Shown: positions 7,699-25,300, counted from the stretch's first letter. The stretch: 64,000 nt of DNA from Cenarchaeum sp. (GCA_965242695.1 CBDESU010000001.1:128001-192000), one strand, 5' to 3'. Notes: generated from the sequence alone by a model not told the origin. Numbers and translations are program-made.

Positions 7699-10600
7699 AA
7701 CCGTCATAGCATCTCACCGGATCGACTGCGATCGCCGTTGCCTGCCGCGGGCGGGTACCGAGGGGGGGGGGTGGCGGCCGCGGCAGCCTGCCTAGCCGTC
7801 TCCGCCTGTCTAGGGGCATCGGCGCTACATCCGCACGCGGCGCTGGATGCCGCCGTGTCCAGCGCCTTGGCGCCCTTGCCGTAGCCGCCTTGGCGATCGC
7901 CCTGGCCGCCTCGTTGCCGCAGCCGGCGATCTGGGACGGCGTTGCCGTTGGCGGCGGCAGTCTGCTAGCCCTGCATATGGACCGCGCCGCCCCCGATGGT
8001 GCCCTCTCGTGGCCTGCGCCGATGCAGCAGATGCTGCTTTTGCCGGCAGCGCATGCAAACCACCCGGCCGCGTATGGCGACTACTATTGGCCGTGCTACT
8101 GGTATCCCAGGACCGACCCCAGCGGCATAGGAAACGCGCACTCGCCCACCTTGGAGTTTTACAACACATCCGCCAACAGCGCGTACAGTGACGGCTACGG
8201 CGCCACGTACAAGATCGGCGACAACATCACCATCCGTAGTAGGGATAGCGCAGTAAACCACGCCGGGTCCGTCTATCCACACACGCGGCTTGCGCTCGAG
8301 ACGGGGGACGTCGACCGGTTTGCCGTCTATTCGTGGCACGACAGCAATAGCGTGGTCTACTACAGGTACACCGTCCAGCCTGGCGACTATTCCGACGATC
8401 TGGGCTACAGGGCGTCCACTGAGGCGGCGTGGGGGGGAGCGATGCACTGGGGGAACCCACGTGGGGACCCCTACCATAAAAACGCGCTTGACTACAGCAG
8501 CCGCACTGAGGCCCAAAAGAAAGCGGCCAACTGCTGGCTGTCGACCCCGGGCGCCTCGGACTACACGCCTCAACTGCCTTCCACCAGTGTTCCCAATCCC
8601 CCAACCGTGCCGTCGCTATCGTTTAAGTACGATGTCGTAGTCGACGGCATCATACCGCGCGTCGAGAACGTCACAATGGCGAGCGGCGCGTACGGGGCGG
8701 GCTCGCAGCTCAACGTCACCGTCAACCTTGCCGAGCCGGTCTTCGCGTACGGGCCGCCGCCGTCGCTGGTCCTTGCGCTTGACGGCGGGAACAGGACGAT
8801 CCCGTACCTGGATGGCAACGAGACGAGATCGCTCGTATTCAGATACATGGTCATGGCGGACGACCTTGCAGACGGCCTGGACTATGCGGGGGCGGGCGCC
8901 CTCGTCCCTGCGGCAGGCGGCATCCTGACGGACTATGCCGGCAACAACGCGAGCCTGGCGCTGCCCGAGCCGGGATCGCCCGGCTCGCTCGGCGCGACCT
9001 CTAACGTCAGCATAACTGCCGCATCGGGGGTGGTGGCGGCGGTCGGCTCGCCCCTGCCCGACGGCACGTACCCCGCGGGATACAGGATCGAGGTGGCCGT
9101 CAACTTTACCGAGCCCGTCGTATACTCGGGCGCGGCTCCGCCGTCGCTGGTACTCAACTTCAGCGGCTCTAACCGGACGGCCTCTTACATGTCGGGCAAC
9201 GACACGCGGTCGCTCGTGTTCGAATACACGGTGCAGCCCGGCGACCCGCGGGTCGCACGCCTGGACTATGCGGGGGCAAGCGCGCTGCAGGCCGGCACTG
9301 GCCTGAGCGACAGGGCCGGCGATTCCGTCGATATAGTCCTGCCATGGCAGAGCGGGGCAGGACAGCTCGGCAGCTCGCACAGCATCGCGATAGACGCGGC
9401 GGCGGCCGCATACGTCACGGCGGTCGGCTCGCCCGGCGGCGACTCTGCGTACAAGCTAGACGACACCGTCCGCATCGCTGTCGACTTTTCGGCCCCCGTC
9501 GCCGTCGCGGGCGCGCCGGCGCTTGCGCTTGCGACCGATCCGCCGCGCAGCGCCTCGTACGCGGGCGGCAGCGGCACCGGCACCCTAGAGTTCAACTATA
9601 CAGTGCGGCAGGGCGATGCCGTTGCCGGCCTGGACTATGCCGGCGTCAGGGCCCTGTCACTGGAGGACGGCGCGTCGATACGCCTTGACGCGCAGGGCGG
9701 AGGCGGCCCGGCCGCCCTCTTGGCCCTGCCGGCGCCAAGCGGCCCGGGCTCGCTCGGACGCGCCCTGGACATTGCAATAGACGGCGCCGCGCCGAATGTG
9801 ACGGGCGTCGAGTCGGCGAGCCCCGACGGCACGTACGGCACGGGCCGGATCGTCGCCATTACCGTAACCTTTGACGAGCCCGTGGTCGTCGAGGGCTCGC
9901 CAGAGCTGAGGCTTGCGACCGTGCCGCCGCGCAGCGCCTCGTACGCGGGCGGCACCGGCACGGCAGAGCTGGCGTTCTGGTATGCGGTGCAGCCGGGCGA
10001 CTCGGCGCCCCGCCTAGAGTACGCGGGGGATGATGCACTCGACTTGGGCGGCGGCGCCTCGTCGATCCGAGATGCCGCCGGCAACGCCGCAAACCTGACC
10101 ATGCCGGCCCCCGGGTCGAACCGCTCGCTGGGCGTCTCGGCAAGCATCGACGTGCACGGGCACGAGGCGCCGATGATTGCCGCGGCCGGCCGCGCCGGCA
10201 GCGATTCGCCCAACGGCGTGGCGGCCTTTGAGCTGAACGGCACCACGTACGCCGCCGTTGCAGCGTCTCACTACGGCGCCAATTCTCAAACTGGTCAGGG
10301 TGGCGGCGGCGTGCAGCTGTTCCGCGTGGACGGCAGCGGCGCGCTGGCCGCCGCCGGCGTGATCAGAGACGATCAGGATGCGCCAGGCCTTGCAGTAGTC
10401 GTCGATATCGATGCGCTCACCGTGGGCGACACCACATACCTCGCCACGGCGTCATGGGATGCACACGGCGTGCAGCTGGTCCTTGTGGACGGCGGCGGCG
10501 CCCTCTCGGCGGGGGGGCGGGCGCAAAACGGCGTAGGCGGCTTCGATACGCTCTACGGATCGGAGGGTGTCGACGTCTTTGCCATGAACGGCACCGTGTA

Positions 10601-22382: not shown

Positions 22383-25300
22383 AGCCGTCATAACTACTCG
22401 CCAGATCGACCCCGATCGCCGTTGCCGGCCGCGGGCGGGCACCGAGGGGGGGGGGGCGGCGGACGCGGCAGCCTGCCTAGGCGCCTCTGTCCGCCTAGGG
22501 GCATTGGCGCGGCATCCGCGTGCGGCTCGGGGTGCAGCCGCGCGTCGCGCCTTGGCACTCTTGCCGTAGCCGCCCTGGCGGTAGCCTTGGCCGCCTCTAT
22601 ACCGCCGGCGATCTTGGACGGCATCGCACCTTCTGCCCCGCATCAGGACCGCGCCGCCCCGGGCATCTTCCCGGGGCCACTGCACCTCGCGCATCTGCTG
22701 CTGCCGGCGGCGCATGCGGACCCCCACTACGGGCCGTGCGTCTATTTTCCCAAGAGCACCGACATAGGCGTCGGGTATACGGTCGTCCTGTCGTTCGTGA
22801 CTCGCGATGGCTTGTACGGAATAGGCGAGACCATCGTCATCAACGCACATAGGACGACCGGACACGGCGATGGCGAGCCTCTTAGGCACTCGCGGATTGC
22901 GCTAGAGACGGGGAACGTCGACCGGTTTGCTGTTTGGCAGGAAAACCAGGGCGACGACATCCTCTACAATTACACCGTCCAGCCGGGGACTATTCCAACA
23001 GACTGGCCTACAAGGGACAGAATGCAATGTACAGGGGGACGAGCCAGACCGCCAACGTCAACAACTTGAACTGCTGGCTGTCGACCCCGGGCGCCCGCGA
23101 CTACACGCCCTCCACCACCCCCGGGTTTGGCCTGCATCAGGATCCTCCCCTAAAGTCGCTTTCGTTCGAGCGCATCGTGAGGATCGACGGAATCGTACCG
23201 CGAGTGGAGGGCGTCACGACGGCAGGCGGCGCGTACGGGGCGGGCTCGCAGGTCGACGTCTCCGTCAACTTTGCCGAGCCGGTCTTCGCGTACGGGCCGC
23301 CGCCGTCGCTGGTTCTTGCGCTCGACGGCGGGAGCAGGACGATCCCGTACCTGGATGGCAACGGGACGAGCTCGCTAGTCTTCAACTATACGGTGCGGCA
23401 GGGCGACCTTGCCGATGGCCTGGACTACGCGGGGGCGGGCGCACTAGTCCTTGCGACGAACGGCACCATAAAAGACGCTGCCCGCAACAACGCAAGCCTG
23501 GCGCTGCCAGAGCCCGGCTCGCCCGGCTCGCTCGGCGCGAATGCGAATGTGAGCATAACGGCCGCACGGGGGGAGGTGGTCGGGGTCTACTCGTCCCTTC
23601 CAGACGGTACGTACCCAGCGGGCCACCGGATCGCAGTCGTCGTCAACTTCAGCGAGCCCGTCGTGTACTCGGGGCCGCCGCCGTCGCTGGACCTCGACCT
23701 GAACGGTGCAAGCCGGACGGCCCTGTACGCGTCGGGCAACAACACGCGGCAGCTATCCTTCCACTACACGGTGCAGCCGGGCGATGCGGATGCAGACGGC
23801 ATGGACTACGCGGGGGCGGGCGCGCTGCAGGCAGGATCCGGCCTGAGGGACAGGGCAGGCGATGTCGTCGATCCCGCACTGCCTTGGACGAACGGGGCCG
23901 GGCAGCTCGGCACCTCGCGCAGCATCGCAGTGGGCGCGGCGGATGCAGCGTACGTCACGGGGGTCGACTCGCCAGGCGGCGACGCCGTGTACAAGCGCGG
24001 CGACACGGTCCGCATCGCCGTCGAGTTCTCGGGCGACGTCGCCGTCACGGGCGTGCCGGAGCTGGCGCTTGCGACCGAGCCGCCGCGCAGCGCTTTGTAC
24101 GAGCGCGGCAGCGGCACGAGCACCCTAGAGTTCGAGTACGAGGTGCGGCGGGACGACGCGGCGTCCGGCCTGGACTATGCCGGCGTCAAGTCCCTGTCCC
24201 TGGACGGCGGCGCCGCGTCGATCCGACTCGACGCGCAGGGGGGAGGCGGGGCGCACGCCCTCCTGACCCTGCCGGCCCCGGGCGCCCAGGGCTCGCTCGG
24301 CCACAGCCGGGACATTGCAATAGACGGCGTCGCCCCCTCGGTGCTGCGCGTCTCGTCGCCGCAGCCGGACGGCACGTACGGCGCGGCCCGAAACATCGGC
24401 ATCTCCGTGACGCTCGACGAGCCCGTGGTCGTCGAGGGCGCGCCCGTACTGAGGCTGGCAACCGAGCCGCCGCGCAGCGCCTTGTACGCGGGCGGCAGCG
24501 GCACGGAGAGGCTGGACTTCCTGTACGTGGTCCAGCCGGGCGACTCTGCGCCCCGCCTGGGATACGCGGGCGAGGACGCGCTTGCCCCGGGCGGCGCCGC
24601 ATCGACGATCCGCGATGCCGCCGGCAACGCCGCAAACTTGACCCTGCCGGGACCCGGGCGGGACGGCTCGCTGCACGCCTCGGCGAACATCGACGTGCAC
24701 GGGGACAAGGCGCCCGTGATTGCCGCTGCCGGCCTGCTCACGAGCGGCGCTGCGCCGGTGCTTGAGGGCGCCAACGACGTGGCGACATTCGAGGCGGGCG
24801 ACCGCACGTATGCCGCCGTGACGTCGTGGGACCAAAAAGGCGTCCAGATTGTGCAGATTCACGAGGATGCCTCCCTGTCCGCTACGGCGAGCGCGACCGA
24901 CTTGCAGGCCGAGTTCGACAAGCTCGACGGTCCGGGAGCCGTCGCCGCCTTTGCCGCGGGCGACTACGCGTACGTCGTGGTGGCATCAGGGTGGCAGGCG
25001 GGAAATTCCAACGGAGACACCGTGCAGCTGATCCGCGTGCACGAGAACGGCACGATCGATGCGCCAGGCACGCCAAGCTGGCTGGATGCGAGACAGGGGC
25101 ATCGACTGACCGGCGCCTCGGGCGTGGACGCCTTTGAGCTGCCCGGCGACGGCGCGTCCGGCGATCGCACGTACGCCATCGTGGCCACCCCGTCCGCCGT
25201 GTCCTGGGCCCCGGGCGGCGTCCAGCTGATCCGCGTGCACGAAAACGGCACGATCGAGGCGGCCGGCTCGCTTGCCCACAACACCCCCGACACCGCCCTG

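What the first reader, a model, noticed from the sequence alone, without database searches (positions are those of the whole stretch)
8070..23180. Antibody-like variable tip domain on three tandem giant surface proteins
Seen: the first domain after the leader (~8070-8630, ~16600-17060, ~22715-23180) keeps short framework blocks in all copies: PC, Y.IG..I.I, H(S/T)R(L/I)ALETG.VDRFAV, YTVQPGDYS, NCWLS(T/S)PG..DY and SLS...V.(V/I)DGI. Several of these are near-identical even as DNA. The ~5 intervening segments are unrelated in sequence and length, rich in aromatic/His/Asn residues, and less GC-rich. Two Cys are invariant (PC and NC). The following Ig-like repeats stay highly similar. Inference: a disulfide-pinned scaffold with hypervariable loops at the adhesin tip, diversified for host, virus or ligand recognition, possibly by exchange at the conserved blocks. 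This is the best candidate for an undescribed system.
Basis: partly seen in the sequence, partly recalled or inferred. Interest (0 to 1): 0.85.

Follow-up and report, generated by a model that had tools for sequence, protein, structure and literature searches.

The report
Variable-loop cap domain on archaeal giant proteins
Three neighbouring giant surface-protein genes of a sponge-associated archaeon each begin with a two-cysteine, immunoglobulin-like domain whose strands are conserved but whose loops differ completely between gene copies, probably a fixed inherited set of binding tips, not an antibody-style diversifying system.

Summary
The first domain after the leader (8058-8657, 16607-17083, 22719-23200) has six conserved blocks, 83% amino-acid identity over seven paralogues. 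Between them lie five segments at 21% identity, 29% gaps and random-level DNA identity. The next domain is 75% identical. Both cysteines are invariant in 18 of 18 aligned caps.

It is not confined to these three genes. The genome (3.9 Mb, 68% GC, sponge-associated Nitrosopumilaceae-like archaeon) holds about 18 giant genes with this cap. The cap is a diverged copy of their own Ig-like stalk repeat.

"Antibody-like" holds only as an analogy, and no active diversifier was found:
- No reverse transcriptase.
- No silent cassettes.
- The gene-2 cap is identical in contigs of four sequencing runs. The gene-1 cap differs by one loop codon.

Loop dN/dS is 0.7-1.2, not above 1, and loop dS is 3-6 times that of the flanks. 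Relationships along the gene are mosaic. The best reading is an inherited repertoire of recognition tips. Recombination homogenises leader and stalk while the loops stay distinct.

The three checked frameshifts are assembly errors. Poly-G tracts precede all 18 genes, which leaves phase variation as an open possibility.

The parts
7866..16163 (+). Giant surface-protein gene 1. One reading frame once two assembly indels (11760, 12914) are corrected. The start codon is uncertain. The hydrophobic leader lies at 7866-7913.
   Evidence: ORFs. Leader coordinates. Short-read contigs insert C after 11760 and drop one base at 12914. Orthologues P0117 and P0151-P0155 read through the first site in one frame.
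8058..8657 (+). Cap domain of gene 1 (200 aa). Framework blocks: 8091-8096 (PC), 8208-8234, 8280-8327, 8361-8408, 8529-8564 (NC...), 8613-8657. Variable segments: V1 8097-8207, V2 8235-8279, V3 8328-8360, V4 8409-8528, V5 8565-8612.
   Evidence: AF2 model: pLDDT 67.6, strands on the framework, V4 below 50. One polymorphic codon at 8574-8576 in V5.
16316..22272 (+). Giant surface-protein gene 2. One frame once the assembly indel at 17566 is corrected. The leader lies at 16493-16540. A likely GTG start sits just before it, and the TTG at 16316 is the first start of the open frame.
   Evidence: Contigs of all 4 runs insert C after 17566.
16607..17083 (+). Cap domain of gene 2 (159 aa). Framework blocks: 16622-16627, 16703-16729, 16775-16822, 16856-16903, 16961-16996, 17039-17083. 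Variable segments: V1 16628-16702, V2 16730-16774, V3 16823-16855, V4 16904-16960, V5 16997-17038.
   Evidence: AF2 model: pLDDT 78.9, pTM 0.78. Contigs of 4 runs lie over it with 0 differences.
22341..31111 (+). Giant surface-protein gene 3. Two frames as assembled, with a 1-nt break at about 22980-22988 inside the cap.
22719..23200 (+). Cap domain of gene 3. Framework blocks: 22734-22739, 22815-22841, 22887-22934, 22965-23011 (broken at about 22988), 23069-23104, 23156-23200. The variable segments lie between them.
7650..7865 (+). Conserved 5' leader of gene 1. It has an AT-rich TATA-like box, G14 (7658-7671), about 90 conserved nt, then G10 (7762-7771). Equivalent leaders: gene 2 with G11 at 16382-16392, and gene 3 with G13 at 22343-22355 and G11 at 22446-22456.
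   Evidence: Upstream alignment, 76% mean column identity. Tract positions.

Best explanation
What it is (shown): each of the three tandem genes encodes a giant (about 2000-2900 aa) secreted surface protein. The order of parts is:
- a hydrophobic leader;
- a short linker ending in a conserved A-H/Y-A motif;
- a 150-200-residue 'cap' domain;
- a stalk of Ig-like (Big_5-like) repeats interrupted by beta-propeller-type repeats;
- a conserved Cys-containing C-terminal domain.

The cap is a diverged copy of the stalk repeat. It has gained an N-terminal Cys-bearing strand, a second Cys where the stalk repeat has its last strand, and long loop insertions.

The strands are under purifying selection. 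Four to five loops have diverged beyond alignment between paralogues. Between orthologues they diverge 1.5-4.5 times faster than the rest of the protein. Leader, framework and stalk have a 3-6-fold lower synonymous divergence than the loops. Relationships along the gene are mosaic.

How it most likely works (inferred): the caps are an inherited, germline repertoire of recognition or adhesion modules. They would serve life inside the sponge, binding host matrix, host cells, other microbes or viruses. Gene conversion and recombination keep homogenising the leader and stalk. The loops escape or are selected to stay different, so each paralogue keeps its own specificity. The two Cys probably form a disulfide that pins the extra N-terminal strand to the C-terminal strand. 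Nothing indicates somatic or programmed diversification.
For: Family size:
- tblastn and a profile search find 16 full-length caps in the genome. Gene 3's split cap and one N-truncated copy make 18.
- Stalk repeats match cap-profile positions about 20-154 at 60-84 bits, so the cap is homologous to the stalk repeat.

Framework against loops:
- 83% against 21% aa identity. Clustering z = -8.9.
- AF2 models (pLDDT 67.6 and 78.9) put the blocks on strands and V1, V2, V4 and V5 in coil or low-confidence regions.
- Cys pair invariant in 18 of 18.
- One database homologue (P0158) lacks the first Cys but has a new one in V4, as a relocated disulfide would require.
- Cys occurs elsewhere in the gene-1 to gene-3 products only in the C-terminal domain. 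This rests on my reading of the translations; I did not count it.

Evolution:
- In 8 orthologue-group sequences, mean identity is 0.90 for the framework, 0.55 for the loops and 0.80 for the body (28 pairs).
- The cap is the least similar DNA segment of the A-B pair (0.44-0.66 against about 0.9) and of the 5' part of the E-F and D-G pairs.
- A-B: dS is 0.22 (framework), 0.65 (loops) and 0.19 (body). dN/dS is 0.43, 0.86 and 0.30.
- E-F: dS is 0.23, 0.65 and 0.11. dN/dS is 0.14, 0.69 and 0.35.
- The last 600 nt or so of genes 1 and 2 are 95-99% identical, which indicates recent gene conversion.
- Mosaic triplets: gene 1 is P0154-like at 13 of 13 informative sites in columns 153-210, against 49 of 175 elsewhere (p <= 0.0033). 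5 of 6 triplets give p <= 0.01.

No active diversifier:
- 0 RVT_1 matches.
- NCWLS..PG occurs 7 times, once in each of the 7 genes.
- The gene-2 cap has 0 differences in contigs of 4 of 4 runs.

Other points:
- Loop composition suits binding sites: His 5.7% and Trp 2.3%, against 0.2% each in the stalk.
- Habitat: 10 of the 12 listed runs hold the stretch or part of it. Where named, they are sponge metagenomes.
- The genes are intact: indels at 11760, 12914 and 17566 in short-read contigs restore one frame.
Against: - No binding, localisation or expression data exist. The function is inferred from architecture and habitat.
- dN/dS in the loops is not significantly above 1 (bootstrap intervals 0.36-2.02). 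Relaxed constraint alone could give the pattern. Alignment error in the loops inflates both dN and dS.
- The cap is not the only variable part. Propeller-region windows fall to 0.50-0.72 identity among orthologues and to 0.33-0.5 DNA identity between genes 1 and 2.
- Whether the N-terminal cap is distal or membrane-proximal is unknown. These three proteins have no C-terminal membrane segment, and leader cleavage is unproven.
- The orthologue proteins come from metagenome assemblies and could be chimeric between paralogues. That would inflate the mosaic signal.
- The four runs may sample one host species and a near-clonal symbiont. Logan contigs also drop rare variants. The stability across runs is therefore weak evidence against population-level variation.
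- Clustering of the loops on one face could not be measured.
Confidence: 0.6

Rival explanations
1. Ordinary old paralogues. The cap is a structural end-cap of the stalk whose long loops are simply unconstrained and drift, with no role in recognition. The conserved blocks are just the beta-strands that any sandwich must keep.
For: - Loop dN/dS is 0.69-1.16, with intervals spanning 1.
- Loops are stable between samples.
- Other parts (the propeller) are also variable.
- No known binding family matches the cap: 0 credible Pfam families in 15 of 15 caps, the only hit being gerPA at E 0.14 in one.
Against: - Loops of the neighbouring stalk domains in the same proteins are not free to drift. Only 4% of their columns are highly variable, against 47% in the cap.
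- Loop dS is 3-6 times that of the flanks. This needs a different history, not only relaxed selection.
- Loop lengths are retained or expanded, not trimmed.
- Loops are enriched in His, Trp and Arg.
- The cap fold and Cys pair are kept in all 18 copies and in a second species.
Confidence: 0.2
2. An actively varied repertoire. Poly-G tracts in the 5' leaders switch individual paralogues on and off by slipped-strand mispairing. Recombination at the conserved leader and framework blocks shuffles loops. The population thus presents changing combinations of caps, a form of phase or antigenic variation.
For: - All 18 cap genes have at least one G tract of 10 or more on the coding strand within 700 nt upstream of the cap. 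That is 28 of the genome's 223 tracts in about 12.6 kb, against about 0.7 expected by my own arithmetic.
- In 16 of 17 genes examined, a tract lies inside the open frame that runs into the cap. In 7 of those 17 an in-frame start lies upstream of it.
- 2 of 3 cap genes examined in a congeneric genome have G13 or G18 tracts in the same place.
- Leader DNA is highly conserved between the three genes.
- Mosaic signals.
- One whole-codon polymorphism in loop V5.
Against: - No read-level evidence of tract-length heterogeneity was obtained.
- This assembly demonstrably miscounts short base runs, so the on/off states cannot be read from it.
- In 9 of 17 genes no in-frame start precedes the tract, so it may lie in an untranslated leader.
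- The tracts are a genome-wide feature (223 of length 10 or more) without a common context.
- The gene-2 cap is identical across 4 runs.
- No cassettes were found.
Confidence: 0.12
3. The domain is membrane-proximal. The N-terminal hydrophobic segment would be an uncleaved anchor. The cap would then co-evolve with a cell-envelope partner or with export, not with external ligands.
For: - The hydrophobic leader is followed by a 40-50-residue linker before the cap.
- These three proteins end without a membrane segment.
Against: - One homologue with the same cap (P0076) ends in a hydrophobic segment plus a basic tail. That would put its cap at the far end.
- The conserved A-H/Y-A motif before the cap resembles a signal-peptidase site. 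This rests on recalled knowledge and was not tested.
- An envelope partner would not be expected to demand 18 unrelated loop sets.
Confidence: 0.08

Closest known systems
VARTIG module of Thermococcales (Makarova et al. 2021, PMC8416519; abstract and outline read)
   Same: It is an archaeal large secreted protein built of Ig domains. One terminal Ig domain is hypervariable and shaped by recombination. Self/non-self recognition or conflict is the proposed role.
   Different: - There the C-terminal Ig domain as a whole is swapped between strains, with variable downstream genes in a layout like polymorphic toxin systems.
- Here the N-terminal domain keeps its strands and varies in loops, between about 18 paralogues of one genome, with no such downstream module seen.
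- That abstract states that no Ig domains of comparable variability were found in archaea outside Thermococcales.
- Sequence homology between the two was not tested.
Giant bacterial adhesins with Ig-like extender regions (MpIBP, SiiE, FdeC, invasin/InvD/InvE, Cwp6)
   Same: - Best structural matches of both cap models: Cwp6 Z 6.1 and 5.8; FdeC 5.7 and 5.0; InvE 5.6 and 5.0; SiiE 4.8; MpIBP 4.5-4.6.
- A long stalk of near-identical Ig-like repeats carries a few divergent ligand-binding modules.
   Different: - All Z scores are below 8, so only the common sandwich arrangement is shared.
- No sequence match to solved structures (best E 0.3).
- No RTX or type-1-secretion signature appeared in Pfam hits.
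- The host is an archaeon.
- The variable module is itself an Ig-like repeat with a Cys pair.
Antibody/TCR variable domains and DGR variable proteins
   Same: The logic is the same: a conserved beta-sandwich framework displays a few hypervariable loops. Foldseek's weak top hits are largely VH and nanobody chains.
   Different: - Foldseek E >= 0.009, TM <= 0.37, rmsd mostly 6-11 A.
- The Cys pair is not on strands B and F.
- No somatic machinery, no reverse transcriptase or template, and no within-sample variation seen.
- Diversity is between paralogues.
Expanded S-layer and LVIVD surface proteins of sponge-associated ammonia-oxidising archaea (PMC6790972 and PMC7848895; passages read)
   Same: The ecological setting and general class are the same. 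Those papers note expanded groups of S-layer-like and LVIVD-repeat surface proteins in sponge symbionts and propose adhesion or host recognition. The N. maritimus S-layer protein is a weak structural match (Z 4.5-5.0).
   Different: The passages I read do not describe an N-terminal two-Cys cap or loop hypervariability. I did not read their supplements.

Membership tests
Bacterial Ig-like domain Big_5 (PF13205), stalk and cap | Pfam model match at or above the gathering score | tested here: inconclusive
   Stalk: 20.1 and 18.2 bits against a cut-off of 23.6, in 2 of 8 ORF products. Precomputed PF13205 is listed for 11 of 16 homologues. Cap alone: no Big_5 match in 15 of 15. The Atlas feature search gives Big_5/Big_12 clusters at 0.90, which is weak.
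Bacterial Ig-like domain Big_5 (PF13205), stalk and cap | Ig-like beta-sandwich fold | tested here: met
   Two AF2 models are all-beta, with pTM 0.68 and 0.78. Best matches are Ig-like adhesin, filamin and S-layer domains at Z 4.5-6.1. This is a predicted fold only.
Diversity-generating retroelement target | A reverse transcriptase encoded in the genome | tested here: not met
   0 matches to RVT_1 in the genome (95.99% complete). The same search rang in 3 of 14 control genomes.
Diversity-generating retroelement target | A template repeat near-identical to the variable region, with adenine-specific differences | not tested
   No dedicated template search was run. Framework motifs occur only once per gene.
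Cassette-based antigenic variation (pilE/pilS, vlsE type) | Multiple silent partial copies flanked by the conserved blocks | tested here: not met
   Six-frame motif scan of the genome: NCWLS..PG occurs 7 times and LETG.VDRF 8 times, each inside a full-length gene's cap.
Immunoglobulin V-set (antibody-like) domain | Significant structural match to V domains | tested here: inconclusive
   Foldseek found no match at E <= 0.001. VH and nanobody rows appear at E 0.009-0.04 with TM 0.2-0.37. None ranks near the top of either VIA search; the only antibody-related row is one Fab-receptor complex, 6wgl_C, Z 4.4, rank 43.
Immunoglobulin V-set (antibody-like) domain | Canonical Cys pair on strands B and F | tested here: not met
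   The first Cys lies before strand A (residue 7 or 13). The second lies after the long F-G region (residue 120 or 159), by DSSP of the models.
Phase-variable contingency locus | A long homopolymer tract in the promoter or 5' coding region | tested here: met
   18 of 18 cap genes have a G tract of 10 or more upstream. In 16 of 17 a tract lies in the open frame running into the cap.
Phase-variable contingency locus | Tract-length heterogeneity within a population that changes expression | not tested
The laid runs were Logan contigs, which cannot show minority lengths.
VARTIG (Thermococcales) | Hypervariable C-terminal Ig domain plus variable downstream genes | tested here: not met
   The variable domain here is N-terminal. 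The genes are followed by further family members or unrelated ORFs. Definition taken from the abstract of PMC8416519.

The most novel reading that the evidence does not exclude
The roughly 18 giant genes form an archaeal contingency repertoire. Each carries a different loop set on a common two-Cys Ig scaffold. Each is preceded by poly-G tracts that switch it on or off by slippage. All share leader, framework and stalk sequences that let recombination reshuffle loops. The symbiont would then vary its surface towards the sponge host or its viruses. This would be the first phase- or antigenic-variation-like system described in archaea.
Probability: 0.12. Interest if true: 0.8.

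Novelty: new variant of a known kind. Interest (0 to 1): 0.5.

Why it matters
How archaeal symbionts are recognised and tolerated inside sponges is unknown. This family offers a concrete, testable set of candidate recognition modules. It is a compact domain with no Pfam family, a fixed scaffold and paralogue-specific loops. It occurs in about 18 versions per genome and as graded orthologues in other sponge metagenomes.

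It also runs counter to a published statement that archaeal Ig domains outside Thermococcales lack comparable variability (abstract of PMC8416519).

The locus is a clean example of concerted evolution that spares binding loops.

If the poly-G tracts prove to be switches, it would extend contingency-locus biology to archaea.

The scaffold could interest protein engineers as a naturally loop-tolerant, small, disulfide-pinned binder.

Tried and rejected
- DGR: no RVT_1 in the genome. Rejected.
- Silent cassettes: framework motifs occur only inside full-length genes. Rejected.
- Pseudogenes: the frame breaks at about 11760, 12914 and 17566 are corrected in short-read contigs. Rejected for those three. 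The break at 22980 was not checked.
- Expression: no RNA holder was listed among the runs. This is no evidence either way.
The tool suggested a part, so 7800-21000 was laid. Gene 3's cap therefore stayed unexamined.
- Sequence search of solved structures with the cap profile: only chance-level rows, E 0.3-0.4.
- Pfam on 15 caps: nothing credible. NCBIfam on two full proteins: nothing credible.
- Foldseek against the PDB for both models: no match at E <= 0.001.
- Atlas feature search: low recognition (1895), only weak Big_5/Big_12 leads.
- Cap in other genomes: among 31 genomes, full-length cap matches appeared only in this one and one congener. The loci examined from two other congeners (L016, L018) and from one confamilial genome (L017) show no cap. 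This means 'not found in those searched'.
- Poly-G locus in JGI metagenome contigs: 0 matches to a flank pattern.
- Poly-G context: no common promoter-like context genome-wide. An AT-rich hexamer lies upstream in 35 of 223 tracts and downstream in 18 of 223.
- One search was a script error and timed out. Both were rerun.
- Loop clustering in 3D could not be measured because model coordinates are not exposed.
- Literature: three searches returned no paper describing this cap. The supplements of the sponge-archaeon papers were not read.

Full report
**Setting.** The window is C1:128001-192000 of a 3.89-Mb, two-contig genome with 68% GC and no N. In a search of 31 genomes its relatives are small (1-2 Mb), mostly complete genomes of one family. 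Its own genus also holds genomes of 1.8-3.7 Mb. From recalled knowledge this pattern fits Nitrosopumilaceae with Cenarchaeum-like sponge symbionts. Ten of the 12 listed public runs hold the stretch or part of it, and those with a name are sponge metagenomes.

**The genes.** Three + strand genes lie head to tail: 7866-16163, 16316-22272 and 22341-31111. As assembled they are split into three, two and two frames. Short-read contigs of independent runs carry three changes:
- An extra C after 11760: X1 98 of 228 depth, X2 315 of 379.
- One base fewer at 12914: X1 57 of 57, X2 398 of 398, X5 4.9 of 4.9, X6 0 of 10.9.
- An extra C after 17566: X1 83 of 208, X2 475 of 976, X5 4.6 of 4.6, X6 6.4 of 6.4.

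Each change restores a single frame. Orthologous proteins from other assemblies read through the first site. These breaks are therefore assembly errors. The break in gene 3 (about 22980-22988) is a missing base in CCGGGG-AC, where the other copies have CC(T/C/G) GGC GAC. It could not be checked against reads.

**The observation.** I aligned the three copies with four more close paralogues from elsewhere in the genome.
- Six framework blocks (68 columns): 83% amino-acid identity, 84% DNA identity, no gaps.
- Segments between them (124 columns): 21% amino-acid identity, 43% DNA identity (about random at this GC), 29% gaps.
- Next Ig-like domain (121 columns): 75% amino-acid identity.

In the cap, 24% of columns are invariant and 47% are highly variable. 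The variable columns fall into a few runs (35 runs against 95 expected, z = -8.9). The next domain has 47% invariant and 4% highly variable columns, with no clustering. Four framework blocks are 86-93% identical as DNA. Both cysteines are invariant in 7 of 7, 15 of 15 and 18 of 18 caps.

Two details need correction. The whole cap, not only its loops, has lower GC (0.60 against 0.68). The loops are enriched in His and Trp, only slightly in Asn, and not in Tyr.

**What the domain is.** The cap has no credible Pfam family in 15 of 15 sequences and no relative among solved structures by sequence. A profile of 15 caps nevertheless matches the stalk repeats of the same proteins over profile positions about 20-154, at 60-84 bits. 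It also matches 7765 proteins in the representative library, mostly through such repeats. The stalk is Big_5-like, sub-threshold here but annotated on 11 of 16 homologues. The cap is thus a specialised copy of the stalk repeat.

Two AlphaFold models were made: gene 1 (pLDDT 67.6, pTM 0.68) and gene 2 (pLDDT 78.9, pTM 0.78). Both are all-beta. The framework blocks sit on strands at pLDDT 80-97. V1, V2, V4 and V5 are coil at pLDDT about 37-76. V3 forms the end of a long hairpin.

The best structural matches are bacterial adhesin Ig domains, filamin repeats and S-layer domains at Z 4.5-6.1. Foldseek's antibody rows are insignificant: E >= 0.009, TM <= 0.37. The first Cys precedes strand A and the second follows the long F-G region. 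This differs from the antibody B-F pair.

**Family size and spread.** The genome has 16 full-length caps, plus gene 3's split one and one N-truncated copy. Each sits at the start of an open frame of 1.6-4.6 thousand residues, apart from two frames cut short in the assembly (717 and 484 aa). Fifteen of the 16 open frames parsed had exactly two Cys in the cap. The sixteenth did not fit my pattern. Among 31 genomes searched, full-length caps appeared only here and in one congener. Database proteins with such caps exist in other assemblies.

**How it evolves.** A word-based search found a graded series of proteins of 2682-2744 residues whose caps are 97, 92, 75, 71 and 62% identical to the query. 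Eight such sequences were compared, including genes at 136 kb (gene 1) and 829 kb of this genome. Mean identity is 0.90 for the framework, 0.55 for the loops and 0.80 for about 1000 residues of body. Loops diverge 1.5-4.5 times faster than the body in 25 of 28 pairs. The three closest pairs show no excess.

The propeller region is also variable, with windows at 0.50-0.72. The cap is therefore the most variable module, not the only one.

DNA identity profiles show the cap as the deepest trough in the A-B pair (0.44-0.66 against about 0.9) and in the 5' part of the E-F and D-G pairs. The last 600 nt or so of genes 1 and 2 are 95-99% identical.

Nei-Gojobori estimates:

| Pair | Region | dS | dN/dS |
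|---|---|---|---|
| A-B | framework | 0.22 | 0.43 |
| A-B | loops | 0.65 | 0.86 |
| A-B | body | 0.19 | 0.30 |
| E-F | framework | 0.23 | 0.14 |
| E-F | loops | 0.65 | 0.69 |
| E-F | body | 0.11 | 0.35 |

Loop intervals include 1. The higher synonymous divergence of the loops suggests that the flanks were homogenised after the loops diverged, or that the loops were replaced. Misalignment contributes an unknown share.

Triplet tests show clustered switches of nearest relative in 5 of 6 triplets at p <= 0.01. One example is 13 of 13 informative sites in the V4-V5 region against 49 of 175 elsewhere. In the body, gene 1 is closest to its in-genome paralogue. In V1, V2 and V5 it is closest to a protein from another assembly. 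The caveat is that those proteins come from metagenome assemblies.

**No active diversifier.**
- No reverse transcriptase was found in the 96%-complete genome.
- Framework motifs occur once per gene.
- Contigs of four runs from three studies cover the gene-2 cap with zero differences: 667, 601, 601 and 482 nt.
- Over 346 nt of the gene-1 cap, the only difference is one whole codon in V5 (8574-8576). It is present in X1 and X5 and absent in X2. It matches the residue of a database orthologue.

Contigs hide rare variants, and the samples may be closely related. This rules out gross variation, not subtle variation.

**Interpretation.** I read the caps as an inherited repertoire of recognition modules on giant surface proteins of a sponge symbiont. 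Recombination homogenises the leader and stalk, and the loops are kept distinct (confidence 0.6). The binding role, the disulfide, the distal position and the one-face arrangement of the loops are inferences.

On topology: if strands alternate as in tandem Ig arrays, V1-V4 lie at the N-terminal pole. The conserved acidic turns would then face the next domain. I could not verify this without coordinates.

**Literature.** The closest archaeal precedent is VARTIG in Thermococcales (abstract read). It differs in position, in mode of variation and in genomic context. Papers on sponge ammonia-oxidising archaea mention expanded S-layer-like and LVIVD surface proteins. The passages I read do not mention this cap. 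Three full-text searches found no description of it.

**Side finding.** Every cap gene is preceded by poly-G tracts. This keeps a phase-variation reading alive at low probability.

Noticed in passing
window 7658-7671, 7762-7771, 16382-16392, 22343-22355, 22446-22456; genome-wide: All 18 cap genes have one or two poly-G tracts (10-18 G, coding strand) 110-430 nt upstream of the cap. In the close subfamily the distal tract directly follows an AT-rich TATA-like box. The proximal tract lies about 100 nt further on, in the frame that runs into the leader. The genome has 223 tracts of 10 or more G. Their lengths peak at 10-13 (only 29 of length 9), and the G/C strand switches along the contigs. 2 of 3 cap genes examined in a congener have them too.
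   Followed up: partly
window 11760, 12914, 17566 (and probably 22980): Single-base indels in the assembly split the giant genes into several frames. Short-read contigs of other runs restore the frame. Base-run lengths in this assembly are unreliable.
   Followed up: yes
window about 15540-16163 and 21650-22272: The last 600 nt or so of genes 1 and 2 are 95-99% identical, although the regions before them are unalignable. This indicates recent gene conversion of the C-terminal domain between tandem neighbours.
   Followed up: partly
window 8574-8576: A whole-codon polymorphism (three adjacent bases, Leu to Asn) in loop V5 of gene 1. It is present in contigs of runs X1 and X5 and absent in X2. 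The variant residue is the one found in database orthologue P0155.
   Followed up: partly
window 33943-41229 (+): A 2428-aa ORF of lower GC (0.60-0.65) carries six ANF_receptor / Peripla_BP_6 ligand-binding domains. The same Pfam family is appended to some cap-bearing homologues (P0015, P0156, P0159).
   Followed up: no
window about 10400-11500, 18700-20000, 25000-26200, 26900-28200: Beta-propeller-type repeats (consensus like Y-A-x-V-x-S-x-x-D-x-G-V-Q-L-I-R-V-H-E-N-G-T-L) interrupt the stalk. Pfam gives EPTP (E 4e-10) and a sub-threshold DUF6923 hit in gene 3. This region is the second most variable part between paralogues.
   Followed up: partly
window 21049-21177 and about 29700-29950: Low-complexity Gly-Asn, Gly-Asp and Gly-Thr-Pro-Gly repeats lie before the C-terminal domain. 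They differ in unit and length between genes 2 and 3.
   Followed up: no
G000 C1:about 21000-31000 and C2:about 1667000-1675100: Profile matches at the start of contig 1 and the end of contig 2 have pairwise identical scores at a constant offset. The two contig ends therefore overlap within a giant gene (5693-aa open frame). The two contigs probably join there.
   Followed up: no
database protein P0158: One homologue lacks the first cap Cys (P-S in place of P-C) but has an extra Cys in V4, so it still has two. This fits a disulfide requirement with a relocated partner.
   Followed up: no
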